Shown here: positions 3,112 to 63,154 of the stretch, piece by piece
How the letters are laid out: each line of letters starts with the position of its first letter
Numbering within the stretch: position 1 is the first letter of the stretch
Notes under the pieces: model-generated
What the model was told of the DNA's origin: nothing
The model's input: only the letters and a program-made list of their open reading frames with translations
Databases searched by the model: none
Source: Phycisphaerales bacterium
GTDB lineage: Bacteria > Planctomycetota > Phycisphaerae > Phycisphaerales > UBA1924
Direction: 5' to 3'
DNA length: 64,000 nucleotides
Assembly: GCA_007693785.1 (NCBI GenBank)
Contig: RECY01000034.1
Span: forward strand, 5,627-69,626
Position numbers and translations under genes: made by a program

Positions 3112-3429
3112 ATGATCGACACACTCGCCGCCGGCGACCGCATCCGCTGCACCGTCAAGAAGGTCCCTGCCGCCAAGGGCCCGACGGACACCATCGCCCG
3201 CCTGATGCGCAAGGACCCGGGCAACGCCAAGGCCCTGCGCCGGGCGCAGGACCTGCGTCGTCGGCGGATGCACAGCTACATCCGCGGCGGGCGCGAGTGG
3301 TTCAGCCGGGAGAAGCCGGCACAGGTCGTCCGCGTCGACACCGGCGAGAGCTGGGAGATGCCCTTCACCTTCGACATCCGCCCGGACCTGGCGAGCGTCG
3401 AGCGGTACCTCGAGATCCAGAAGGCCTGA
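3112..3429 (+). CDS. hypothetical protein (105 aa)
   Basis: Non-low-complexity C-terminal part of track ORF 2824..3429, starting at MIDTLAAGDRIRCTVKK. A hairpin terminator follows. I recognise no family. Confidence 0.5.
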   Translation: MIDTLAAGDRIRCTVKKVPAAKGPTDTIARLMRKDPGNAKALRRAQDLRRRRMHSYIRGGREWFSREKPAQVVRVDTGESWEMPFTFDIRPDLASVERYLEIQKA

Positions 3430-3496: not shown

Positions 3497-3532
3497 GCCC
3501 GGCCCCGCAAGCGGCCGGGCATTGTCGTTGGT
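3497..3532 (+). terminator. putative intrinsic terminator
   Basis: GCCCGGCC-ccgcaagc-GGCCGGGC (8-bp stem, 3497-3520) followed by ATTGTCGTTGGT. It lies 68 nt after the stop at 3429. Confidence 0.4.
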
Positions 3533-3556
3533 GCGCACACCGCCCTACTTCAGCAT

Positions 3557-3801
3557 GTGCCACTGACCTTTTCTGAAAGGTCAGTGCTCCGGGCCGCCCT
3601 CAAGCTTCTCCTCCGGTGCCATGGAAACGCGAAGCCGTCCGCGGCGCAGCTTTTCCATGCCGGGCGCGGACAGTGTGTCGAGCGAGGGAGAGTGGGAGAG
3701 AGAGGTAGTCCCGGAAAAGCTCCGCCCGCGGCGGGCTCCGCGTTTCCGGGGCACCGGCGGAGACACCAGAGCACCGACCTTGCAGACAAGGTCAGTGGCA
3801 C
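3557..3801. repeat. nested-palindrome intergenic repeat, copy 1 (245 bp)
   Basis: Begins GTGCCACTGACCT and ends AGGTCAGTGGCAC. Left terminal hairpin is CACTGACCTTT-tctg-AAAGGTCAGTG (3561-3586). The right terminal hairpin (about 3772-3797) has one mismatch. Confidence 0.85.
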
Positions 3802-3841
3802 ATTGCACCACCGCGCGTGGATCACCGACCTACGCTTCCCC

Positions 3842-4356: not shown

Positions 4357-4815
4357 ATGCCCCCCGAGATCCGTTTGCTCCAGCCGGATGACGTGTCGTT
4401 GATGCACGCCTTGCTCACGATGTTCGGCGAAGCCTTCCACGAAGCCGACACCTACGGCTCCAACCGTCCGGGCGATGATTACCTCCGCGAGCTCCTGAAG
4501 TCCGACAGCTTTCTTGCGCTCGCCGCGGTGCGGGACGGCGCGGTGGTCGGTGGGTTGACCGCGTATGTCCTTCGAAAATACGAGCAGGCGCGGAGCGAGG
4601 TCTACATCTATGACCTGGCTGTGGCGGCGTCGCATCGGCGACAGGGCATCGCGACGGCCTTGATCGAAACGCTGAAACCGATCGCGGCCGCTCGCGGAGC
4701 GTATGTGATTATCGTGCAGGCCGACACTGGGGAGGAGGACCAGCCGGCGATCACGCTCTACAGCAAACTCGGCACGCGCGAGGACGTTTTGCACTTCGAC
4801 ATCGACGTCCATTGA
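4357..4815 (+). CDS. aac(3): GNAT-family aminoglycoside 3-N-acetyltransferase, AAC(3)-I-like
   Basis: Collinear with AAC(3)-Ia as I recall it: [12 protein letters not shown]...[24 protein letters not shown]...[11 protein letters not shown]...GAYVI.VQAD......A..LY.KLG.RE.V.HFDID. Confidence 0.8.
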
Positions 4816-15866: not shown

Positions 15867-16973
15867 TCAGGGGCACGCGCCGAGGGTGTCGAGCCAGCCG
15901 GCGATGTAAAAGTTGAGGTCGCTGGTGGTGACCTGCCCGTCGGGGACCCCGTCGAGCGCGGGGCCGGTGATGTCGGCGGCGGGATCGGCATCGATCCAGA
16001 GCGCGATGTAGAAGTTGAGGTCGCTGGTGGTGACCTGTCCGTCGGGGACGCCGTCAAGCGCGGGGCCGGTGATGTCGAAGGGGCAGGGGGCCGAGACACC
16101 GGTTCGTGGGTCGGCGGAGATGACTTCCCAGATGACCTGGTAGGTCGCTTGGAGGGTTTCTTCGCGGAAATACGAGGGCGTCGGGTTGGCCGGGTGGTTG
16201 CGGATCTCCGGATCGAGCAGCGACCTGGGGTCGATGCGTTGAAGGACGCTGAACGCCGTGACGGCGGCGACGTGTCGCCCGTAGTCGCGGGTCATATGCA
16301 CGGCATCGCGGTAGAGCTGACTCCGGAAGTTGAGCACATCCGGAACTTGTCGGCTCTCGATGCGTTGCTTCAGCAGATAGAGCACCTCGGCAACCGGGAT
16401 CAGGCGTAAGGATTCGCCGAATTGTGATTCATACATCGCGAATGCGGCGTCGTAGTAGTCTCGTGAAATGGCGGTCGGCGTGTCCAGCGTGAACTCGCCC
16501 GGTTCATTCCAAAGATCCACGAAACCATCGCGACTTGGCCATCCGGTGTAGAGATAAAACAGCGTCGTGGCGTTCTCGGGATTTTCTCGGGTCAGTTCCA
16601 CGAAGAATCGCAGCGCATCCACATCCTCACCGAGCGTGGGCTTCGGGAAGGTCATGTGCAACTGGAGCGTCACCGCGTCCCAGCGGTACGATGGCAACGC
16701 GCTCTGGTACATCCCTGACGGGGGTGGGTCTACGCAGATCCCGTCCGGATTGGCTTGGATGTACGGGAGTGATCGCCCGCAATTGATGTGGAACCCGACC
16801 TCGGTGGGCAGGCCCGCCGCGATCGCGATGGCTTCCTGATAATCCGGGCGGCTGTCCCATGTCAGGCTGTTCCCGACGTGATAGCTCCGAAAAACAGGGG
16901 GCTCAGCCACCGCAGCAGAGGCGCCCAAGGCGATGGCACCAGCCACACGCACAACGATTACACCGGCTCGCAT
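15867..16973 (-). CDS. secreted protein with two C-terminal GC-type dockerin-like repeats
   Basis: Signal peptide from the ATG at 16973 (MRAGVIVVRVAGAIALGASAAVA). The C-terminus carries DITGPALDGVPDGQVTTSDLNFYIA twice and ends in ...LGACP. Confidence 0.65.
   Translation of the reverse strand: MRAGVIVVRVAGAIALGASAAVAEPPVFRSYHVGNSLTWDSRPDYQEAIAIAAGLPTEVGFHINCGRSLPYIQANPDGICVDPPPSGMYQSALPSYRWDAVTLQLHMTFPKPTLGEDVDALRFFVELTRENPENATTLFYLYTGWPSRDGFVDLWNEPGEFTLDTPTAISRDYYDAAFAMYESQFGESLRLIPVAEVLYLLKQRIESRQVPDVLNFRSQLYRDAVHMTRDYGRHVAAVTAFSVLQRIDPRSLLDPEIRNHPANPTPSYFREETLQATYQVIWEVISADPRTGVSAPCPFDITGPALDGVPDGQVTTSDLNFYIALWIDADPAADITGPALDGVPDGQVTTSDLNFYIAGWLDTLGACP
15901..16077 (-). repeat. in-frame tandem duplication encoding the two dockerin-like modules
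   Basis: Two 75-nt units (15901-15975 and 16003-16077) with a 102-nt period and 4 mismatches by hand alignment. Confidence 0.85.
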
Positions 16974-17077
16974 GGGTTGACGCTCTCCGGAAGAGGCCGT
17001 AAGGCCGAAAAATCCCCTCAACAAGGTATCTCGATTTCGGCCGAATGCAAGCCGAGAAAGGCGGACAGCATACCGTA

Positions 17078-17111
17078 CAAAATCAAATAAAAAGCCCCGC
17101 ATGAGCGAGGC
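17078..17111 (-). terminator. intrinsic terminator of atpA
   Basis: Minus strand reads GCCTCGC-tcat-GCGGGGC followed by TTTTTATTTGATTTTG. It lies 44 nt after the atpA stop. Confidence 0.7.
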
Positions 17112-21275: not shown

Positions 21276-22398
21276 GGCGAACGTGCGCACGTCCCGCGCG
21301 CTCGAGGCTTGGTTCAGCACGAACGCGCGGGCGCTCCCGTGGCGTGTGTCGGGGGCGGGCGGGATGCGCCGGGAGGCGTGGGCGTCGCTGGTGAGCGAGC
21401 TGATGGCGCAGCAGACGCAGATCTCGCGGGCTGCGGAGAAGTTTGTGCCGTTTATGGCGCGCTACCCGACCCCGACGGCTCTCGCCGACAGCGCCGACGC
21501 GCCCGGGGGTGAGGACGAGGTCCGGGCGCTCTGGCAGGGGCTGGGTTACTACCGGCGGGCGCGTCTTCTGATTGAGGCGGCCCGCGCGATCCGCGATCGG
21601 CACGCGGGCGTCACGCCGACGGACGCGGAGGCGCTGCGGGCGCTGCCCGGGGTGGGGCCGTACACCGCCGGGGCGGTGGCGTCGATGGCGGGGGACCGAC
21701 CGGAGCCGCTGGTGGACGGGAACGTCGCGCGGGTGCTGCTCCGCCTGCACGCGCCGGCAGAGGTGCCCCACCAGCCGGCGGACCGCGCGACGCAGAAATG
21801 GCTGTGGCGCGAGGCGCGCGCGCTGGCCGAGGCGGCCCGCAGCCCTGGAGACACGAACGAGGCGTTGATGGAGCTCGGCGCAACGGTCTGCACGCCGCGG
21901 AACCCGCGTTGCCTGCACTGCCCGCTCTCGGGCAGCTGCCGGGCGCTCGCGACGGGGCGTGCTGAGTCGATCCCGGAGCCGAAGCCGCGGGCGACGAGGC
22001 GGGAGCTGTTCGCGACGACGCTGATCGTGCGCGATGCGCGCGGGCGCGTGCTGCTGGAGCGGCGTGCGAGCAAGGGGCTGTGGGCGGACCTCTGGCAAGC
22101 GCCGACGGATGAACGCGACGGGATGGACGATCTGGCCGACGCCGGCGCGGCCTTGTGCGCACGCCTCGGGCTGCGCCGAGGGCGGGCGGTTGAAGAGTTG
22201 GGCGCGTTCGAGTTTCAGACGACGCATCGGCGTGTGCGGTTCCGCGTGCTCGGCGTGCGCACGGCGCTGAGCGCGGGCGACGCCGAGCGGCTGACGAAGG
22301 GTGGCTGGCGGTGGGCCGAGGGGACGGCACTGTCGGGGTTGATCGCGGGTCGGGCGCAGCGATTGGCGCTGGAGGCCGGGGGTGTGGGGGTGGATTGA
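21262..22398 (+). CDS. mutY: A/G-specific adenine DNA glycosylase
   Basis: LPWR, SELMAQQTQ, GLGYYRRAR, HhH-GPD (LPGVGPYTAGAVASMA) and the 4Fe-4S Cys cluster CTPRNPRCLHCPLSGSC. GTG start overlaps the preceding gene by 14 nt. Confidence 0.85.
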   Translation: MTRREANVRTSRALEAWFSTNARALPWRVSGAGGMRREAWASLVSELMAQQTQISRAAEKFVPFMARYPTPTALADSADAPGGEDEVRALWQGLGYYRRARLLIEAARAIRDRHAGVTPTDAEALRALPGVGPYTAGAVASMAGDRPEPLVDGNVARVLLRLHAPAEVPHQPADRATQKWLWREARALAEAARSPGDTNEALMELGATVCTPRNPRCLHCPLSGSCRALATGRAESIPEPKPRATRRELFATTLIVRDARGRVLLERRASKGLWADLWQAPTDERDGMDDLADAGAALCARLGLRRGRAVEELGAFEFQTTHRRVRFRVLGVRTALSAGDAERLTKGGWRWAEGTALSGLIAGRAQRLALEAGGVGVD

Positions 22399-22413
22399 CG
22401 GGATGTGCTCGAT

Positions 22414-22680
22414 GTGCCACTGACCTTGCTGCAAGGTCCGTGCTTCCTGGCCTTCTCCCTCTTCGATGCTCTTTTTATGTTGTGCGTTTTGGAGTGAGAG
22501 GGGTGTTGGAGAAAGGAGGAGGGGAGCCCGGAGCACTGACCTCTCGGAAGAGGTCAGTGGCACATGGGATCGGCGCTCCGGATCTGGCCTTTGGCCCTTG
22601 GTGCTTTTGGCGATTTCCTCCCGGACCTCCTCCGTCGGCTATGCCGACACCTCCCCCGCTGGAGCGGGGGAGGGCAGGGG
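22414..22680. repeat. nested-palindrome intergenic repeat, copy 2 (150-bp core 22414-22563 plus a ~115-nt tail)
   Basis: GTGCCACTGACCTT...AGAGGTCAGTGGCAC. Right hairpin is CACTGACCTCT-cgga-AGAGGTCAGTG (22534-22559). Tail hairpins at 22634-22648 and 22650-22673. Confidence 0.85.
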
Positions 22681-22712
22681 GAGCGCGTCGGTGGGCGCAT
22701 ACGCTTTTGTTC

Positions 22713-23459
22713 ATGCGTCTGGTCGTGGTCATCCCGGTGTACAACGAGGCGGCGTTGCTCGAGCGCGCCATCGCGCGGCTCGAGGCGACGCCCGCGCTCC
22801 CCGGCGGCGAGCGCGTGGAGCGGGTGCTCGTGCTCGTGGACGACGGCTCGACCGACGGGTCCACCGAGCTTGTGCGCGCGATGGAGGGTGCTGGGCGTGC
22901 GCACGCCGTGGTGCATGCGCGGAACCGGGGCAAGGGGGCCGCGCTGCGGACGGGGTTTCAGAAGGCGATGGAGCTCGGGGCGGACGTGGTGCTGGTGCAG
23001 GACGCGGACCTGGAGTACGACCCGGCGGACCACGGCGCGGTGCTCGCGCCGATCCTCGATGGGCGTGCGGACGCGGTAATCGGCAGCCGCTTTATTGGGA
23101 CGACGCACCGCGTGCTGTACTACTGGCACTTCCTCGCGAACCGGTTCATCACGCTGTGCAGCAACGCGCTGACGAACCTGAACCTGAGCGACATCGAGTG
23201 CTGCTCGAAGGCGATGACGCGGGCGGCGCTCGAGCGGATCACGATCGAGGAAGACCGCTTCGGCGTGGAGCCGGAGCTGGTCGCGAAGCTCGCACGCCTG
23301 CGCCTGCCGGACGAGCGCGACGCGGCCCGGGTGCGCCAGACGCGGATCTACGAAGTGGCCGTGAGCTACGCGGGGCGGACGTACGAGGAGGGGAAAAAGA
23401 TCACCTGGCGCGACGGCGTGCGCGCGCTGGTGTGCATCGTGAAGTACAACCTGCGGTGA
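22713..23459 (+). CDS. family 2 glycosyltransferase (polyprenol-phosphate sugar transferase-like)
   Basis: ATG at 22713. VVIPVYNEA, VDDGSTDGS, RNRGKGAA and QDADLEYDP motifs. Confidence 0.85.
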   Translation: MRLVVVIPVYNEAALLERAIARLEATPALPGGERVERVLVLVDDGSTDGSTELVRAMEGAGRAHAVVHARNRGKGAALRTGFQKAMELGADVVLVQDADLEYDPADHGAVLAPILDGRADAVIGSRFIGTTHRVLYYWHFLANRFITLCSNALTNLNLSDIECCSKAMTRAALERITIEEDRFGVEPELVAKLARLRLPDERDAARVRQTRIYEVAVSYAGRTYEEGKKITWRDGVRALVCIVKYNLR

Positions 23460-23478
23460 GAGACACGGAGCACGAGAT

Positions 23479-23725
23479 GTACCACTGACCTTGTCCGCAA
23501 GGTCAGTGCTTCCGCCTCTACCCCTTCTTTCCTGCTCTGGGTGCTTGGGGTGGGAGGAGCATGGGAGAAAGAGAGAGGGGGCCCGGAGCACTGACCTCTC
23601 GGAAGAGGTCAGTGGCACATCCGGATGTGGCGCTTTGGCCCTTTGTGGTTTTGGAGATGTTCCGCCGGCCCCCTCCGTCGGCTTCGCCGACACCTCCCCC
23701 GCCGGGGCGGGGGAGGGCAGAAAGG
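23479..23725. repeat. nested-palindrome intergenic repeat, copy 3 (140-bp core 23479-23618 plus a ~105-nt tail)
   Basis: GTACCACTGACCTT-gtccgc-AAGGTCAGTG on the left. The right hairpin (23589-23614) is identical to that of copy 2. Tail hairpins at 23677-23691 and 23693-23716. Confidence 0.85.
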
Positions 23726-23739
23726 GGCGCCGTCCGTGT

Positions 23740-24225
23740 TTACGGGTTATCGCGGACGACTTTTTCGATCACGATCGGCTCGACGGGGACGTCGCCGTGC
23801 CCGGCCCGGGTGGTGGTCTTGACTTTCTTGATCTGATCGACGACGTCCATGCCCTCGATGACCTCGCCGAAGACGGCGTATGCGGCGCCGTCGGGCTGCT
23901 TCTGATCGAGGAAGGCGTTGTCGTTAACGTTGATGAAGAACTGGTTGCTCGCCGAGTCGGGGTCGCCGCCGATGCGGGCCATCGCGACGGCGCCGCGTTT
24001 GTTGTTGAGGTTGTTGGTCCACTCGTTCTTGATGGTCTTGTTGCCCTGGCGCTGGTCCATGTCGGTGGTGAAGGCGCCGCCCTGGATCATGAAGCCGTCG
24101 ATGACGCGGTGGAAGATGGTGCCGTCGTAGGCACCGGCGTCGACATAGCTCAGGAAGTTGTCGGTGCTGATGGGGGCTTCGTCGCGGTTGAGTTCGAGGA
24201 CGATGTCGCCCTTGCTGGTGGTCAT
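23740..24225 (-). CDS. ppiB: cyclophilin-type peptidyl-prolyl cis-trans isomerase
   Basis: FHRVIDGFMIQGG, GAVAMAR...PDSASNQFFIN and VFGEVIEGMDVVD. ATG at 24225; the rest of the 682-aa track ORF is shadow. Confidence 0.9.
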   Translation of the reverse strand: MTTSKGDIVLELNRDEAPISTDNFLSYVDAGAYDGTIFHRVIDGFMIQGGAFTTDMDQRQGNKTIKNEWTNNLNNKRGAVAMARIGGDPDSASNQFFINVNDNAFLDQKQPDGAAYAVFGEVIEGMDVVDQIKKVKTTTRAGHGDVPVEPIVIEKVVRDNP

Positions 24226-41567: not shown

Positions 41568-41621
41568 CGCACGCGCGACAGATATGCAAATCGCCGGAGG
41601 GCCATAGGGCCAAATCCGGAT

Positions 41622-41782
41622 GTGCCACTGACTTCTTCTGAGAGGTCAGTCCTCCGGGCCGCCCTCTCGAATCTCTACTACCCCGGCTCCCCCCGCCTCC
41701 GGCCCCACCCCCAACAACCAAAGAGCATCAAAAGAAGCCGGAGAGCCGGGAGCACTGACCTTGCGGACAAGGTCAGTGGCAC
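41622..41782. repeat. nested-palindrome intergenic repeat, copy 4 (161-bp core)
   Basis: GTGCCACTGACTTCTTCTGAGAGGTCAGTC...CACTGACCTT-gcggac-AAGGTCAGTGGCAC. Short tail-like remnants (GGGCCAAATCCGGAT / ATCGGGATG..TTTGGCCC) lie on both sides. Confidence 0.85.
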
Positions 41783-41884
41783 ATCGGGATGCCCGATTTG
41801 GCCCTCTGTGCATCTGCCATGTGGCCATTTTCCCGCGTAGACTGCCCTGAACGGATCACCTGACGCCGGAAGGGACCCCCCCAG

Positions 41885-46350: not shown

Positions 46351-47127
46351 TCAGCGCACTGCGGGGGAGGACCCCGCCGCGTTCGCGACCGTCGGACGGA
46401 CGCCGAAGTAGGTGCAGATCGTGTCGCAGAAACCGGGCTCCGCGAGCCGATCCAGTTCGTCCTTCTGGAGCGTCGGGGCGTCCTCCATGCTGCTCTTGGG
46501 CGCCGAGACACGGAACTCCGTGCCCTTGGTGTGCTCCAGAGCCGTCCATGGCACCGGGACGCAATCCCCTCCCATGCCCGTCTTCACCAGCACAAAGCCG
46601 ACGTTGTCGCAGGTGTAGCGGTCGGTCACCAGGTCCTTGATCGAGCCCACACTCTCGTCGTGGGAATCAAGAATCTTGGCGCCCTCAAGGTCTTTGGAAA
46701 GCATGTATCGCACGCCGAGGCTCCCGGCTTGGCCGGACTTGGAGCCCGCGTCTTTGTGAATGCTCGGCGAGCGTCCGAACGCCTGCTTGACTTTGTCGCG
46801 CCATGATTCGTCGTGCAGGCTGTCCCACTTCTTCGGATCAAAGTCCGGAGCGTGCTCGAGCTGCGCCTTGGTCGTGCCGAGCACGAACCGTTCTTCCTCA
46901 GCGTCGCCGACGAACGACTCCATCGGCACCGCGACCGACTCGCGGTTGATGCCGAGCACGCCGCCGAAAGAGACCACCGCGTACGGCGTGACGCCGCTGC
47001 GATAGTCCACGATCAGCTCGGAGATCTTGCCGAGCTTTTCGCCGTTGGGGTTCACGACTTCCGCGCCGCGTACGTCCGCGGCCCGCACGAAGCCCCGCCC
47101 CATATGTCCGCTCATGCCATGTGCCAT
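46351..47127 (-). CDS. PRC-barrel domain protein (two PRC-barrel modules)
   Basis: ATG at 47127. GKISELIVDYRSGVTPYAVVSFGG and SIKDLVTDRYTCDNVGFVLVKTG. Confidence 0.7.
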   Translation of the reverse strand: MAHGMSGHMGRGFVRAADVRGAEVVNPNGEKLGKISELIVDYRSGVTPYAVVSFGGVLGINRESVAVPMESFVGDAEEERFVLGTTKAQLEHAPDFDPKKWDSLHDESWRDKVKQAFGRSPSIHKDAGSKSGQAGSLGVRYMLSKDLEGAKILDSHDESVGSIKDLVTDRYTCDNVGFVLVKTGMGGDCVPVPWTALEHTKGTEFRVSAPKSSMEDAPTLQKDELDRLAEPGFCDTICTYFGVRPTVANAAGSSPAVR

Positions 47128-47422: not shown

Positions 47423-48571
47423 TTAGCGGTCGCGGCGCGGCGTGGGGGTCCGGTCGCCGTCGCGGCGATCCGTCCCGTCACGCATATCGCGCTGCTGCTG
47501 CTGGCCGTCACGGCCCCCAGACTGCTGGCGAGCCTGCACCTGGTAGAACGAGTAGATCGACTGACGGAACTGCTGATTGCTCAGGCGCGTCAGGTCATCG
47601 GTGTCCAGCTCCGGGCCCTGCGAGATGCGATCCTCGGTCACGGACAGACGGAACTCGTTCTCACCGACACGGTGCAGCGCTTCCCACGGGATCGGACGCG
47701 TGGTCGTGCCCATGCCGAGCACGCCGCCCGTTTCCAGCGTCACGAACCCGATGTGCCCGCTCGATTGGTCGACGATCACATCGTCGATCCGTCCGATCCG
47801 GTCCCCGTCCGAGCCAACCACTCGGGAGCCCTTCAGGTCCGTCATCATCAGGTACGGCTTGAACTCGCCGCTGGCGTGAGCGCCGGGCTGCGTGCCACGC
47901 CTGTCCTGATCGCGACCGTCCTGGTTGCGTCGGGTGTCCTGCTGCGGGTTGCGGCGGTCCTGATCACGCACGTTGTCCCGATCGCCCTCTCGCTGCTGAT
48001 CCCAGTCACGCCTTTGACCGTCACGACGGTCGCCATCGCGTTGGTTGGCATCGCGATCCATACCGGGCACCTGCCCGAACGCGTTGCGGACCTGCTCGCG
48101 CCACGATTCGTCGTGCAGATCGTCCCAATTATCCTTATCGAAATCGGGCGCACGCTCGAGACGCTCACGCGTCGTGTTGAGCATGAACTCTTCTTCGCGC
48201 TGATCCCAGCGGAGCGCGGCGATCGGCACCGCGACCGAGTCGCGACCCATGCCGAGGAACCCGCCGAAGGACACGACCGCGTAGGGCGTAGCGCCCGTGC
48301 GCACATCGACGATCAGGTCGCTGATGGTGCCCATCTCCTCACCGGTAGCGTTCACGACATCCTTGCCGGTCGCCTTGCCAGCCATCATGTAGACCGCCTG
48401 CTGCTGCTGTTGCTGCCGCTGCTGGGTCTGCTGCTGCTGGCCGGGCTGCATCGTGCGATCCGCCGGGCGTTGCGGCTGGCGCTCACGCTCGGTCTGCCCA
48501 ATCGCGGGGACCGCGAACAGCATCGCGGCCGTGAGCGGGGCGGTCGTCTTCAGAAAAGCTTTCATCTTCAT
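47423..48571 (-). CDS. secreted PRC-barrel domain protein with Gln-rich and Arg/Asp-rich linkers
   Basis: Signal peptide (AFLKTTAPLTAAMLFAVPAIG). The two PRC modules are paralogous to the gene at 46351-47127 (GTISDLIVDVRTGATPYAVVSFGG). I prefer the ATG at 48571, preceded by AAGGAG; the track start at 48577 is a TTG. Confidence 0.7.
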   Translation of the reverse strand: MKMKAFLKTTAPLTAAMLFAVPAIGQTERERQPQRPADRTMQPGQQQQTQQRQQQQQQAVYMMAGKATGKDVVNATGEEMGTISDLIVDVRTGATPYAVVSFGGFLGMGRDSVAVPIAALRWDQREEEFMLNTTRERLERAPDFDKDNWDDLHDESWREQVRNAFGQVPGMDRDANQRDGDRRDGQRRDWDQQREGDRDNVRDQDRRNPQQDTRRNQDGRDQDRRGTQPGAHASGEFKPYLMMTDLKGSRVVGSDGDRIGRIDDVIVDQSSGHIGFVTLETGGVLGMGTTTRPIPWEALHRVGENEFRLSVTEDRISQGPELDTDDLTRLSNQQFRQSIYSFYQVQARQQSGGRDGQQQQRDMRDGTDRRDGDRTPTPRRDR

Positions 48572-60841: not shown

Positions 60842-61840
60842 TCACTCGAGTGTCCGGCGTTGTTCGGCGTTCCGGAACACGTGCAACCCAAGCTGTGTCG
60901 AGAGGGCTTCGCACACCCGGATCCCGCGAACACTGTTCCCCCCGGTGTTCAGACGGGGGGAGTAGACCGCCACGCCGAGCCGCCCGGGGACCACGGCCAT
61001 GAACCCGCCACTGACGCCGCTCTTGGCGGGGATACCGACGCGGTAGGCCCATCGCCCGGATTGCTCGTAGAGCCCGCAGGTGAACATCACCGTGAGCACA
61101 TCGCGGAGCGAGACGGGCGAGATCGCCCGCGTGCTCGTCCGCGGGTTGACGCCGGCGTTCGCGAGCGTCGCCGCCATGGTCGCAAGCTGGACCGTGTTCA
61201 CGGTGATCGAGCACATCTGGAAGTACAGATCGAGCGTCTCGTCGAGATCGCCGCCGAGCCGCCCGAAATTCCGCATGAGATACGCGATCGCGCGGTTCCG
61301 ATCCGCGGTGCTGCTCTCGGAGATAAAAACACCCATGTCGATCGCAGGGCGCTCGCCGATGTGCAGCGCGATGGCTTCGAGAGCGCGGTTCAGACGGTCG
61401 GTCGGATCGTGGCCGGGCAGAAGCCCGGCGATCGCGATCGCGCCGGCGTTGACCAACGGGTTCATGGGCCGGTTCGTGCCCCGCTCGAGCACGACCGCGT
61501 GGTAGGGGTTGCCGGTCGGCTCAACGCCCACGGCTCGTTCGACAGCGCTGCGCCCGAGCTGGTCCAGCGCCATGCCGTACATGAACGGATTGGCGATCGA
61601 CTGCAGCGTGAAGCCGGTGTCGGCATCGCCCACCGAGAAGACCTCGCCCTCGCACGTAACCACGCTGATCGCGAATGTGCCCGGATCCACACGCGCAAGC
61701 TCGGGGATGTAGGCGGCAACCTCGCCTTCGGTGTTGCCGGACAGTTCAGCGTGCAGGTCGTTGATCGCGGCTAGAATCCGGATGCTGGGTCGGCTGGAAC
61801 GCAGCAGGATGGTCCGGTCGGTCTTCTGGGTGGGAATCAT
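60842..61840 (-). CDS. glsA: glutaminase A
   Basis: YIPELARV, FTLQSIANPFMYGMAL, NPLVNAGAIA and [11 protein letters not shown]. Confidence 0.9.
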   Translation of the reverse strand: MIPTQKTDRTILLRSSRPSIRILAAINDLHAELSGNTEGEVAAYIPELARVDPGTFAISVVTCEGEVFSVGDADTGFTLQSIANPFMYGMALDQLGRSAVERAVGVEPTGNPYHAVVLERGTNRPMNPLVNAGAIAIAGLLPGHDPTDRLNRALEAIALHIGERPAIDMGVFISESSTADRNRAIAYLMRNFGRLGGDLDETLDLYFQMCSITVNTVQLATMAATLANAGVNPRTSTRAISPVSLRDVLTVMFTCGLYEQSGRWAYRVGIPAKSGVSGGFMAVVPGRLGVAVYSPRLNTGGNSVRGIRVCEALSTQLGLHVFRNAEQRRTLE

Positions 61841-62020: not shown

Positions 62021-63154
62021 TCACGCCGTGGCCTCCGACGTGCTGCGGGCGTGACCGTTGGCCTCGGTCGGGTTCGACATCTGAGCGCCCGCGGCCAGTT
62101 GACCTTTGGCGCTGGCGTCGGCGTCGAGCATCGTGGGCGGCGCGTCAGACGATGCCCAGGCGCCGGGTGAGGTCAGCGTAGCGTCGAACATGTGCATGCC
62201 GAACTCGGAGGAAAGATCCTGGCAGACGCGGATGCCGCGGACCGTGTTGCCGCGTTCATCCAGGCGTGGCGAGTACACCGCGATGCCGAGCTGATTGGGC
62301 ACGACCGCGATGATGCTGCCCGAGACGCCGCTCTTGGCCGGCAGCCCGACCGAGTAACCCCACTGCCCGGCATAGTCGTACATCCCGCATGTGTACATCA
62401 CGGTGAGGATGTCGCGGAGGTACGCGGCATCCACGGCGCGCACGCCCGTGATGGGGTTGACGCCGTTGTTGGCGAGCGTAGCCGCCATCATCGCCAGGTC
62501 CCGGCAGTTCCCGAGGATCGAGCACTGCTGGAAGTACAGGTCCAGGATCTGATCGACGTTGCTGCCGATCATCCCGAAGTTGAGCATCAGATAGGCAATC
62601 GCGCGGTTGCGGTTGCCCGTCGTCCGCTCGGACATGAACACGGACATATCCACCTGGACCTGACGCCCGAAGTATCGCCCGAACATGTCCAGGATCCGGT
62701 TCAGGCGCGTCGTGGGATCGTCGCCTTTGATCAGGCTGGTCGTCGCGATCGCCCCCGCGTTCACGCACGGGTTGTGCGGGCGGTTGGTCGCGTCCAGCTT
62801 GATGATGGAGTTGAACGCGTCCCCGGTGGGCTCGACCCCGACCCGCTCGAGCACCGCGTCCCGTCCGTGGTCCTCGAGTGCTAAGCCGTAGATAAACGGC
62901 TTGGAGACCGATTGGATCGTGAACTGACGCTCCGCGTCGCCGATCTCATAGACCTGCCCGTCTGCGGTCACCACGCAGATTCCGAACCAGTCCGGGTTCG
63001 CCTTGGCGAGCTCGGGGATGTACGTCGCGATGTCGCCGTCTCGCAGATCGCGGTAACGAAGATGGAGCTCGTTGAGGGCCGCCAGCACCCGGAAGTGCGT
63101 GGTGCTGGTGGCGACCGAGATGATCTGGGGCGTTTCCTGCTCGTGTGTGCGCAT
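62021..63154 (-). CDS. glsA: glutaminase A paralogue with a ~50-aa C-terminal extension
   Basis: [34 protein letters not shown] and [11 protein letters not shown]. Confidence 0.9.

What the first reader, a model, noticed from the sequence alone, without database searches (positions are those of the whole stretch)
3557..3801. Nested-palindrome intergenic repeat family: four copies, eight conserved hairpin modules in 64 kb
Four intergenic elements (3557-3801, 22414-22563, 23479-23618, 41622-41782) all begin GT(G/A)CCACTGACCT and end with its reverse complement AGGTCAGTGGCAC(AT). Each terminus is itself a 10-11 bp hairpin. Examples are CACTGACCTTT-tctg-AAAGGTCAGTG (3561-3586), CACTGACCTCT-cgga-AGAGGTCAGTG (22534-22559, identical at 23589-23614) and CACTGACCTT-gcggac-AAGGTCAGTG (copy 4, right end). 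The loops differ (tctg, gctgc, gtccgc, gcagac, cgga, gcggac) while the stems stay paired. One stem change is compensatory: T:A becomes C:G at stem position 10. That argues for selection on a folded nucleic acid rather than on a peptide. The recurring PLTSSERSVLRA and STDLxxKVSGT strings in the ORF track are simply these hairpins translated. The inner flanks are also conserved (GCTCCGGGCC ... GCCCGGAGC). All four copies lie directly downstream of a plus-strand CDS. The architecture recalls REP/BIME, REPIN or MITE elements, but I do not recognise the sequence as any described family. It could be a mobile element, a 3'-UTR stabiliser or terminator, a recombination site or a structured RNA.
Basis: seen in the sequence. 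Interest (0 to 1): 0.72.

Follow-up and report, generated by a model that had tools for sequence, protein, structure and literature searches.

The report
REP/REPIN palindromic repeats of Phycisphaerales
The four intergenic repeats are pairs of REP hairpins (REPIN-type doublets), a known kind of small bacterial repeat served by a domesticated transposase (RAYT); this family, in a poorly studied planctomycete group, has apparently not been described, but it is otherwise ordinary.

Summary
The window has four intergenic elements of 144-249 bp. Each is bounded by inverted copies of a 30-nt unit: a GTGC tag followed by the hairpin CACTGACCT-loop-AGGTCAGTG. Shuffles give no such hairpins.

The unit behaves as a REP. 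The same tagged hairpin occurs in at least 22 Phycisphaerae species genomes. In three of them it directly flanks, on both sides, a gene that passes NCBIfam's curated cut-off for REP-associated tyrosine transposase (RAYT). One of these is the sister species of the window's organism, where the flanking REP is identical over 30 nt to window copies. Stems covary within and between genomes while the tag stays fixed.

All four window elements are tags-outward doublets that fold into one long hairpin, which is the REPIN architecture. Each pairs two REP subtypes. In the sister species both tested sites hold a REP. In a more distant relative neither holds this family, and one holds a different REP.

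No RAYT lies in the window, and none was recovered from its own genome. Transposition is inferred, not shown.

Verdict: a new member of a known kind. The tag is GTGC rather than the canonical GT[AG]G. An identical REP in Thermodesulfobacteriota genomes is unexplained. Interest is low to moderate.

The parts
3555..3803 (.). REP doublet 1 (tags outward, REPIN-like), 249 bp. Left REP 3557-3586 (+, A-like subtype), right REP 3772-3801 (-, B subtype, 1 stem mismatch). The 185-nt spacer holds a nested doublet of a second REP family.
   Evidence: single long hairpin as DNA, -89.3 kcal/mol, z -11.0
3616..3659 (+). Family-2 REP nested in doublet 1: GTGC tag plus the long imperfect hairpin CATGGAAACGCGAAGCC...GCAGCTTTTCCATG.
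   Evidence: the same family stands alone in the MutY-GT2 spacer of L115-L117 and occurs in L080
3710..3754 (-). Family-2 REP, inverted partner. Its stem ends are CCCGGAAA...TTTCCGGG, compensatory to CATGGAAA...TTTCCATG.
22412..22565 (.). REP doublet 2, 154 bp. Left REP 22414-22442 (+, B-like, 1 mismatch), right REP 22534-22563 (-, A subtype). It begins 14 nt after the stop of the MutY-like gene.
   Evidence: an orthologous doublet sits at L114:5716-5861
23477..23620 (.). REP doublet 3, 144 bp. Left REP 23479-23508 (+, B subtype, tag GTAC), right REP 23589-23618 (-, A subtype). It lies between the convergent GT2 and cyclophilin genes.
   Evidence: the orthologous site in L114 (6766-6799) holds a single double-foot REP
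41620..41784 (.). REP doublet 4, 165 bp. Left REP 41622-41651 (+, A-like, degenerate), right REP 41753-41782 (-, B subtype). It lies between the DnaJ/PilZ gene and a PLP-dependent enzyme gene.
22566..22677 (+). A separate repeat abutting doublet 2, not part of the REP. Module B is TCCGGATCTGGCC..TTTGGCCCTTGGTGCTTTTGG. Module C is CCTCCGTCGGCTATGCCGACACCTCCCCCGCTGGAGCGGGGGAGGGCAG and contains two small hairpins.
   Evidence: (D14)
23621..23720 (+). Second copy of modules B and C, abutting doublet 3.
   Evidence: module C is absent from the orthologous spacer of L116

Best explanation
The elements are REP doublets (REPINs; 'HH dimers' in Di Nocera's terms) of a REP family from Phycisphaerales (Planctomycetota).

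The basic unit is a 5' GTGC tag, often (G)GTGC or ATGTGC, at the foot of a 9-12 bp hairpin, CACTGACCT-loop-AGGTCAGTG. Two units of different subtype face each other with the tags outside: A has inner stem and loop TCTTCYGAGA, B has TTGTCYGCAA. The spacer is 80-185 nt, and the whole element can fold as single-stranded DNA into one long hairpin.

By analogy with E. coli TnpA_REP/RayT and IS200/IS605 TnpA, a single-copy HUH/Y1 RAYT would bind the hairpin and read the tag as a guide. It would cleave and rejoin single-stranded DNA, probably at the replication fork, and so spread and maintain the doublets in intergenic DNA.

Shown here:
- the repeat family, its tag and its covarying hairpin;
- the doublet architecture;
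- its physical linkage to RAYT genes in related genomes, including the sister species;
- different occupancy of orthologous sites among relatives.

Inferred:
- that the window's own genome encodes the cognate RAYT;
- that RAYT mobilises these doublets;
- any host-level effect, such as a 3'-UTR hairpin stabilising the upstream mRNA, which is possible but secondary.
For: 1. Recurrence: 5 exact hairpins against 0 in shuffles; 8 tagged units in 4 pairs.

By my count of the record titles these came from 22 Phycisphaerae assemblies. Of 105 hairpins in the Phycisphaerae loci and the window, 100 carry GTGC on exactly one side. Of 9 sporadic hits in other taxa, 8 lack the tag.

3. RAYT linkage. L088:7171-7713, L030:3157-3732 and L069:2272-2883 score 90-97 bits on NCBIfam NF047646 'REP-associated tyrosine transposase' (cut-off 80), and they pass Pfam Y1_Tnp.
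- Each has these REPs within about 80 bp upstream and within 30 bp of its stop codon, one overlapping it.
- The best PDB match is 4ER8, E. coli TnpA_REP, with the HUH motif (PEHVH) and Y motif (YVHENPV) aligned.
- L088 comes from MAG JBJHBZ, whose GT2 ortholog is 90% identical to the window's.
- Its flanking REP, GTGCCACTGACCTCTTCCGAGAGGTCAGTG, is identical to window units 22534-22563 and 23589-23618.

4. Covariation, on 50 distinct units anchored only on GTGCCAC..GTG:
- 88% of cells are paired, against 77+/-1% in shuffles and 29-41% with the partner slid;
- 66 cells changed on both sides, against 25+/-4 in shuffles (0 of 500 reach it);
- 7 of the 8 free pairs show a double change.
Between genomes the stem is replaced outright while GGTGCCA stays: CACGGACC, CACCGACC, CACTACTCGCCGC, CACGATGC, CATGGTC.

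5. Architecture:
- 45 non-overlapping tags-outward pairs in Phycisphaerae loci, against 10 tags-inward and 13 tandem.
- All four window elements fold as one long hairpin, z -4.4 to -11.
- 19 of 24 doublets in the window plus JBJHBZ pair subtype A with B, and none is A/A. This resembles the Y/Z pairing of E. coli REPs.

6. Orthologous sites:
- The sister species has a doublet at the MutY-GT2 site, with a compensatory CACGGACC/GGTCCGTG stem.
- At the GT2-PPIase site it has a collapsed 'double-foot' REP.
- A relative with 86% GT2 identity has this family at neither site, and a different GTGC-tagged REP in the first.

7. A Logan short-read contig from the window's own sample starts and ends inside the two REPs. 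This is expected of a multi-copy repeat.
Against: - No RAYT lies in the 64-kb window.
- No RAYT more than 60% identical to the sister species' RAYT exists among 5.8 billion proteins. The cognate enzyme of the window's own genome is therefore unobserved; it may be unassembled or lost.
- The tag is GTGC, not the canonical GT[AG]G of RAYT-linked REPs (PMC6006769), nor GTAG/CGTC (PMC3733652).
- The window's spacers (80-185 nt) sit at the long end of the range in related genomes (9-101 nt). Copies 2-4 have poorly conserved interiors.
- The site differences among relatives could reflect loss rather than gain.
- No transposition assay exists for this family. To my knowledge, in-vivo REPIN mobilisation by RAYT has not been directly shown for any system.
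Confidence: 0.85

Rival explanations
1. A MITE derived from, and mobilised by, a DDE-type insertion sequence. The roughly 40-bp terminal inverted repeats would be transposase binding sites and the hairpins incidental.
For: The elements have terminal inverted repeats of 30-40 bp, measure 144-249 bp and are intergenic. The AT flanking each end could be read as a 2-bp duplication.
Against: - AT...AT cannot be told apart from an extension of the inverted repeat. It is absent in other species and at the orthologous L114 copy, whose left flank is CT.
- Single units and tandem or tags-inward pairs of the same hairpin are common. A TIR-defined MITE does not predict this.
- The hairpin stems covary.
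- The only transposase repeatedly found next to the repeat is a Y1 RAYT.
Confidence: 0.04
2. Primarily host cis-elements acting in RNA, as 3'-UTR stabilisers or terminators of the upstream plus-strand genes, kept by selection for that role and not mobile.
For: All four lie 14-126 nt downstream of a plus-strand CDS. They form very stable hairpins. G-T pairs occur in some stems. REPs in E. coli are reported to stabilise upstream mRNA (my own knowledge; also the abstract of PMC3733652).
Against: - No T tail follows any REP hairpin, and the terminator scan reports none at them (sequence).
- Units occur on both strands in equal numbers, 48 and 52.
- The invariant single-stranded tag and the linkage to RAYT are not explained by an RNA role.
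- Four positions are too few to show a bias towards 3' ends.
- This role can coexist with the REP/RAYT explanation as a secondary effect.
Confidence: 0.07
3. A family of structured small-RNA genes or riboswitch-like elements.
For: Covarying helices and intergenic location.
Against: - No Rfam family reaches its threshold. Only weak plant miRNA-precursor hits of 20-27 bits against gathering scores of 105-168, which is generic for long hairpins.
- No promoter-like site in 22300-23800.
- Element interiors are not conserved.
- The palindromic symmetry means both strands fold alike, which suits a DNA-level signal.
Confidence: 0.02

Closest known systems
REPIN-RAYT systems (Bertels & Rainey 2011, PMC3116915; PMC3337134) and REPtrons (Ton-Hoang/Chandler; classification in Quentin et al. 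2018, PMC6006769)
   Same: - A short palindromic unit with a conserved 5' tetranucleotide at the hairpin foot.
- Units mostly in inverted pairs that fold as one hairpin.
- Intergenic and multi-copy.
- A RAYT gene flanked on both sides by the same REPs (L088, L030, L069).
- Class-2 Y motif Y..(.)NP and a WQ motif.
   Different: - The tag is GTGC (extended GGTGCCA) instead of GT[AG]G.
- The host is Phycisphaerae, which is not discussed in the papers read; their only planctomycete examples found here are R. baltica GTAG repeats and class-3 proteins with CnGA feet.
- The RAYT subclass is not assigned.
- The window's spacers (80-185 nt) are long compared with the 9-101 nt in related genomes here.
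- The same stem sequence is kept across at least 22 species.
E. coli REP/BIME elements with TnpA_REP (RayT), PDB 4ER8
   Same: - Two REP subtypes pair in opposite orientation (A/B here, Y/Z there).
- The enzyme is homologous: 4ER8 is the best PDB hit, E 2e-6, with the HUH and Y motifs aligned.
- Of the E. coli positions that PMC6006769 lists as contacting the guide, W94, Q95 and R104 align with identical residues.
   Different: - There is no sequence similarity between the repeats themselves.
- Positions E100 and H101 are D and R here, as PMC6006769 notes for its subclasses 2.5 and 2.7.
- No BIME linker motifs or IHF or gyrase sites are known or tested here.
GTAG- and CGTC-tagged REP superfamilies (Di Nocera et al. 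2013, PMC3733652)
   Same: - A tagged stem-loop with a 6-13 bp stem and a short loop.
- HH, TT and HT dimers, mostly 20-100 bp apart.
- Sub-families with complementary stem changes.
- Examples in the PVC superphylum.
   Different: The tag variants listed there are GYAG, GYRG, GTRG, GTMG, GTGG and CGTC/TGTC/CCTC. GTGC is not among them, and the paper's text contains neither GTGC nor CACTGACC.
IS200/IS605 ends and their palindrome-associated derivatives
   Same: A Y1 HUH enzyme family; subterminal hairpins with a guide tetranucleotide; single-stranded DNA chemistry.
   Different: IS ends are not inverted repeats of each other and the transposase lies within the element. Here the units are inverted, the RAYT scores below the IS200 model cut-off (19.7-23.8 bits against 55) and above the RAYT cut-off, and no tnpB is adjacent.

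Membership tests
REP (repetitive extragenic palindrome) associated with a RAYT | A short imperfect palindrome (stem about 6-13 bp or longer) present in many copies, mostly intergenic | tested here: met
   8 units in 64 kb, all intergenic. 50 units in 141 kb of sister-genome loci, although those loci were chosen for containing matches. At least 22 Phycisphaerae assemblies carry it.
REP (repetitive extragenic palindrome) associated with a RAYT | A conserved unpaired 5' tetranucleotide at the foot of the hairpin (canonically GT[AG]G) | tested here: inconclusive
   A conserved tag is present on exactly one side in 100 of 105 hairpins, and it stays constant in RAYT loci whose stems differ. Its sequence is GTGC, not GT[AG]G. 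So the feature is met in form but not in the canonical sequence.
REP (repetitive extragenic palindrome) associated with a RAYT | The same REP flanks a RAYT gene (REPtron arrangement) | tested here: met
   Met in relatives: L088 (sister species), L030 and L069, and with variant stems in L118, L119, L120, L105, L153 and L214. Not testable for the window's own genome, since no RAYT lies in the window.
REP (repetitive extragenic palindrome) associated with a RAYT | The hairpin is maintained by compensatory change | tested here: met
   66 double-change cells against 25+/-4 in shuffles, 0 of 500 reaching it. An orthologous-site change from CACTGACC/GGTCAGTG to CACGGACC/GGTCCGTG between the window and L114.
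REPIN (REP doublet forming a hairpin) | [quoted passage not shown] | tested here: met
   All 4 window elements qualify. 45 tags-outward pairs against 10 tags-inward and 13 tandem in Phycisphaerae loci. Long-hairpin minimum-energy folds, z -4.4 to -11.
REPIN (REP doublet forming a hairpin) | Mobilised as a unit by a single-copy, vertically inherited RAYT | not testable with these tools
   Indirect evidence only: site occupancy differs among relatives, and the sister species' RAYT cluster holds one sequence on one contig.
RAYT / TnpA_REP (class 2 TnpA_Y1) | HUH motif, catalytic Tyr in Y..(.)NP, WQ motif; a score above the curated RAYT model and below the IS200 model | tested here: met
   NF047646 at 90-97 bits (cut-off 80); transpos_IS200 at 19.7-23.8 bits in two of the three proteins and no match in the third (cut-off 55). 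PEHVH, FWQ and Y[VI]H[EFQ]NPV are seen in the translations and aligned to 4ER8.
DDE-type MITE | Terminal inverted repeats plus a target-site duplication, and a parent IS with the same termini | tested here: not met
   No consistent direct duplication flanks the copies. No such IS is in the window or the loci. Only Y1 enzymes are adjacent.
Rfam RNA families | A match at or above a family's gathering score | tested here: not met
   0 matches at gathering thresholds over the window. Only sub-threshold miRNA-precursor hits appear in E-value mode.
Intrinsic terminator | A GC-rich hairpin followed by a T run | tested here: not met
   One search reports no terminator-like site at the REPs in 22300-23800. 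The sequences after the hairpins are CTCCGGGCC, CTTCC or GCACAT.

The most novel reading that the evidence does not exclude
GTGC-tagged (GGTGCCA) REPs may define an undescribed REP superfamily with its own RAYT clade. It would be widespread in Phycisphaerae and in many uncultured lineages: about 0.67 Mb of metagenome loci gave dozens of different stems behind the same tag.

The identical unit GTGC-CACTGACCTG also occurs in at least 9 Thermodesulfobacteriota MAGs, where it has the opposite doublet architecture (tags inward, 26-31 nt gap in 14 of 15 pairs). That would imply transfer of a REP-RAYT system between phyla, which sits badly with the view that these systems are mostly inherited vertically (abstract of 10.1101/2022.05.22.493013).
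Probability: 0.3. Interest if true: 0.5.

Novelty: new member of a known kind. Interest (0 to 1): 0.3.

Why it matters
- It extends RAYT-linked REP/REPIN systems, studied almost entirely in Proteobacteria and Cyanobacteria, to Phycisphaerae.
- It shows a guide tag (GTGC) outside the canonical GT[AG]G. The aligned guide-contacting residues differ from E. coli at two positions (D and R for E100 and H101). That gives a natural variant for testing how RAYTs read the tag.
- In practice these repeats break short-read assemblies: the Logan contig L113 ends inside them. They also create spurious ORFs with recurring peptides, so annotating them improves MAG quality.
- If the identical REP in Thermodesulfobacteriota is served by a related RAYT, it bears on whether REPIN-RAYT systems move between lineages.

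Tried and rejected
- An E. coli RayT sequence written from memory served only as a tblastn lead. The hits were then tested against NCBIfam, Pfam and PDB.
- The weak L061 hit from that search is a Nif3-like gene, not a RAYT.
- No RAYT lies in the window, with E. coli or Phycisphaerae queries.
- Looking up the window's PLP enzyme and the Mucisphaera RAYT (P0019) by exact sequence found nothing on record. The exact GT2 protein gave only a 967-bp Logan contig, so the rest of the window's genome could not be reached.
- The search for a RAYT serving the Thermodesulfobacteriota copies failed three ways. A RAYT profile against all 27 such loci gave nothing. A metagenome scan for tags-inward doublets gave RAYTs only next to other stems. 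The most AT-rich RAYT homolog (P0025) sits next to a sulfatase gene with yet another stem, and its organism was not identified.
- Rfam at gathering and E-value thresholds gave nothing meaningful.
- The terminator and promoter scan found nothing at the REPs.
- A scan for further GTGC-tagged hairpins in the window found background only.
- Literature searches for the motif and for REP or RAYT in Phycisphaerae or Planctomycetota found no description.
- TCCGGAT next to the tag was considered as an insertion target. It occurs in only a minority of copies, so this was not pursued.

Full report
**Observation**

The hairpin pattern CACTGACCT-N4-14-AGGTCAGTG matches five times in the window and never in 100 dinucleotide-preserving shuffles. 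A looser search finds exactly eight units, arranged as four convergent pairs. It allowed up to 2 mismatches in GTGCCACTGACC and up to 2 in GGTCAGTG.

- Each unit is a GTGC tag followed by a 25-26 nt hairpin.
- In every pair the tags point outward. The elements therefore read AT-GTGC-hairpin ... hairpin-GCAC-AT and span 3555-3803, 22412-22565, 23477-23620 and 41620-41784.
- Three of the eight hairpins are imperfect, copy 4 starts with GACTT, and the inner flank CTCCGGGCC is only partly conserved.
- The recurring peptides are translations of the hairpins.

**Gene context**

Context was judged from GC3, Pfam and orthologous gene calls.

- Copy 1 begins 126 nt after a 105-aa ORF with GC3 of 0.94 and no Pfam hit. 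It lies upstream of a lipoprotein-like gene.
- Copy 2 lies between the MutY-like and GT2 genes.
- Copy 3 lies between the convergent GT2 and cyclophilin genes.
- Copy 4 lies between a DnaJ/PilZ gene and a PLP-dependent enzyme gene.

**Where else the unit occurs**

By their record titles, I counted about 80 loci from 22 Phycisphaerae or Phycisphaerales assemblies. A further 27 come from 9 Thermodesulfobacteriota, Desulfomonilaceae or Syntrophaceae MAGs, and 9 are isolated hits in unrelated taxa.

Of 105 hairpins in the Phycisphaerae loci and the window, 100 carry GTGC on exactly one side. They are split 48 to 52 between the strands. Of the 9 isolated hits elsewhere, 8 have no tag. The tag is therefore part of the unit, and the isolated hits are chance palindromes.

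The window comes from a Phycisphaerales MAG. Its GT2 protein is 100% identical to P0121, which NCBI names 'MAG... [Phycisphaerales bacterium]' on a 73,687-bp contig. The nearest other genome is MAG JBJHBZ (SF2967_J5348). Its GT2 is 90% identical and its gene order matches.

**The enzyme**

A tblastn lead pointed to ORFs in four Phycisphaerae loci. Three were submitted to the curated libraries: L088:7171-7713(-), L030:3157-3732(+) and L069:2272-2883(+).

- They score 90-97 bits on NCBIfam NF047646 'REP-associated tyrosine transposase' (cut-off 80).
- On the IS200 transposase model, two score 19.7-23.8 bits and the third does not match (cut-off 55).
- They pass Pfam Y1_Tnp.
- The best solved structure is 4ER8, E. 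coli TnpA_REP. The HUH motif (PEHVH against PEHMH) and the tyrosine motif (YVHENPV against YIYINPV) align.

Each of the three genes has the tagged hairpin within about 80 bp upstream and within 30 bp of its stop codon; in L030 the downstream unit overlaps the stop (sequence). L088 belongs to the sister species JBJHBZ. One of its flanking REPs, GTGCCACTGACCTCTTCCGAGAGGTCAGTG, is identical over all 30 nt to window units 22534-22563 and 23589-23618. This is the REPtron arrangement described in PMC6006769.

More RAYT loci of the same clade carry different stems behind the same GGTGCCA tag:

- L118: CACTACTCGCCGC
- L119: CACGATGC
- L105: CATGGTCTTGGC
- L120, L153, L214 and L241: further variants

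**Selection on the hairpin**

Units were collected without requiring a hairpin. They were anchored only on GTGCCAC-N20-GTG, which gave 50 distinct 30-mers from Phycisphaerae loci. For the 11-pair helix:

- 88% of cells are paired, against 77 +/- 1% in column shuffles and 29-41% when the partner is slid;
- 66 cells changed on both sides, against 25 +/- 4 in shuffles (0 of 500 reach it);
- 7 of the 8 unconstrained pairs show a double change.

Stem position 4 alternates between T:A, G:C and C:G, giving CACTGACC, CACGGACC and CACCGACC. The T:A to G:C swap also separates the orthologous copies of the window and L114. Because the palindrome is symmetric and the tag is single-stranded, a DNA hairpin read by a protein accounts for this at least as well as an RNA would.

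**Architecture**

- In Phycisphaerae loci, tags-outward pairs dominate: 45 non-overlapping pairs with spacers of 9-262 nt. There are 10 tags-inward pairs and 13 tandem pairs.
- The window's spacers are 185, 91, 80 and 101 nt.
- All four elements fold as single-stranded DNA into one long hairpin in which the left REP pairs with the right REP (z -11.0, -4.4, -5.5, -4.6). This is what defines a REPIN (PMC3337134). In Di Nocera's terms they are HH dimers (PMC3733652).
- In the window plus JBJHBZ, 19 of 24 doublets pair an A-type REP (inner TCTTCYGAGA) with a B-type (inner TTGTCYGCAA). Three more pair an A-type with an unclassified unit, two of them with B-like inner sequences. One doublet is B/B and none is A/A. 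This resembles the Y/Z pairing in E. coli REPs.
- Copy 1 is long because a doublet of a second GTGC-tagged family is nested inside it (3616-3659 and 3710-3754). Its stem ends, CATGGAAA...TTTCCATG and CCCGGAAA...TTTCCGGG, are themselves compensatory.

**Turnover at orthologous sites**

- MutY-GT2 spacer: the window and the sister species both carry a family-1 doublet. A relative with 86% GT2 identity (L115-L117) has no family-1 REP there. It has a single family-2 REP instead.
- GT2-cyclophilin spacer: the window has a doublet. The sister species has one hairpin with tags on both sides (GTGT...ACAC). PMC6006769 explains such 'double-foot' forms as a central deletion within an inverted dimer. The 86% relative has no REP there.

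Different REPs occupying the same spacer fit insertion and turnover better than simple loss, but direction cannot be proved.

A Logan short-read contig from the window's own sample begins and ends inside the two REPs that flank GT2. That is expected of a multi-copy repeat.

**What was not found**

- No RAYT lies in the window.
- Nothing more than 60% identical to the sister species' RAYT was found among 5.8 billion proteins. The window genome's own enzyme is therefore unobserved.
- Rfam gave no match at gathering thresholds. In E-value mode it gave only sub-threshold miRNA-precursor hits, which are generic for long hairpins.
- The terminator scan found nothing at the REPs, and none of the hairpins is followed by a T run.
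- No consistent target-site duplication flanks the elements.
- The literature held here has no paper combining Phycisphaerae with REPs, or Planctomycetota with RAYTs. The motif appears only in unrelated primer lists.
- Di Nocera et al. list the tag variants GYAG, GYRG, GTRG, GTMG, GTGG and CGTC. Quentin et al. give GT[AG]G and, for class 3, CnGA. GTGC is in neither.

**Mechanism**

The model rests on established work on E. coli TnpA_REP and IS200/IS605 TnpA, as summarised in PMC6006769. The RAYT binds the folded REP on single-stranded DNA and uses the 5' tetranucleotide as a guide. It then cleaves and rejoins DNA through its HUH/Tyr centre, which spreads REP doublets.

In the alignment to 4ER8, three guide-contacting positions (W94, Q95, R104) align with identical residues. 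E100 and H101 are D and R here, which the paper notes for its subclasses 2.5 and 2.7. That may relate to the different tag, but this is inference.

A secondary role of the transcribed hairpins in stabilising upstream mRNAs is possible and untested.

**The Thermodesulfobacteriota copies**

These MAGs carry the same tag and stem (GGGTGC-CACTGACCTGG-loop-CCAGGTCAGTG). There the unit pairs tags-inward with a CACGGACC-stem REP. The gap is 26-31 nt in 14 of 15 pairs and 45 nt in the other. The pair sits inside a larger conserved element.

No RAYT was found in the 27 loci fetched, or next to this type in the metagenome scan. Whether this reflects transfer between phyla or convergence stays open.

The metagenome scan also showed that GGGTGCCAC-tagged doublets with many other stems are common in environmental contigs. 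Some lie next to RAYTs of this clade: L214 at 186 bits and L153 at 172 bits on my profile.

**Verdict**

This is a real, well-supported REP/REPIN family: a new member of a known kind, with a non-canonical GTGC tag. Confidence in the REP/RAYT explanation is about 0.85. Interest is low to moderate.

Noticed in passing
window 3616-3659 (+) and 3710-3754 (-); L115/L116:5897-5942; L080 about 4490-4532: A second GTGC-tagged REP family (GGTGC + CATGGAAACGCGGAGCC...GGCGGAGCTTTTCCATG, about 40-nt hairpin). It is nested as an inverted pair inside copy 1. A single copy occupies the MutY-GT2 spacer of a relative that lacks family 1 there. Its stem ends covary (CATGG/CCATG against CCCGG/CCGGG).
   Followed up: partly
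window 22626-22677 and 23669-23720; L036, L110, L027, L114, L096, L010, L100: A separate interspersed repeat, 'module C': CCTCCGTCGGCTnnGCCGACACCTCCCCCGCnGGnGCGGGGGAGGGCAG, with two small hairpins. It abuts copies 2 and 3. The fetched sister-genome loci give 15 blast matches at 91-96% identity. It is absent from the orthologous spacer of L116. It is often preceded by 'module B' (TCCGGATnTGGCC..TTTGGCCCTTTGTG..TTTCC), which L116 does have. Its nature is unknown.
   Followed up: partly
L004:1776-2035, L066, L073, L067, L021, L024, L048, L106 and others (Thermodesulfobacteriota MAGs): The identical tag and stem (GGGTGC-CACTGACCTGG...) occurs in at least 9 MAGs of another phylum. It always pairs tags-inward with a CACGGACC-stem REP (gap 26-31 nt in 14 of 15 pairs, 45 nt in one), inside a larger conserved element of about 200 bp with outer ACCGGTAT/ATACCAGT-like ends. 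No RAYT was found in the fetched blocks.
   Followed up: partly
L121-L240 (metagenome contigs): Tags-inward doublets GTGGCACCC-N20-35-GGGTGCCAC with many unrelated stems are common in environmental contigs of 40-73% GC, for example CACGGATTGCAAGCAATCCGTG and CACGCCCAAACGAGTTTGGGCGTG. This suggests a broad GGTGCCAC-tagged REP superfamily.
   Followed up: partly
L241:1-640: Upstream of a RAYT in an AT-rich contig (a sulfatase gene is nearby) there are three tandem copies of an element of about 210 bp. Each starts TTGGGTG(C/G)CACGGTTCGGACAC and closes with GTCCGAGCCGTG about 70 nt later, so it is a REP with a very large loop.
   Followed up: no
L113 (Logan SRR7901803, 967 bp): A short-read contig from the window's own sample begins and ends inside the REP hairpins flanking the GT2 gene. 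These repeats fragment assemblies and may explain why the RAYT locus of this genome was not recovered.
   Followed up: no
window 3497-3530: A GC-rich hairpin (GCCCGGCC-ccgcaagc-GGCCGGGC) followed by ATTGTCGTT lies between the small ORF that ends at 3429 and copy 1. It may be that gene's own terminator.
   Followed up: no
window 15889-15975 and 15991-16077: A tandem direct repeat of 87 nt, 91% identical, with a 102-nt period. It lies where ORF 15867-17102 (-) overlaps several other long ORFs, so it may be an internal protein repeat, but the coding frame was not checked.
   Followed up: no
window 46775-47068 vs 48075-48368; 61196-61339 vs 62507-62650: Diverged direct repeats (71-75% identity) spaced 1300-1311 bp apart, probably adjacent paralogous genes.
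   Followed up: no
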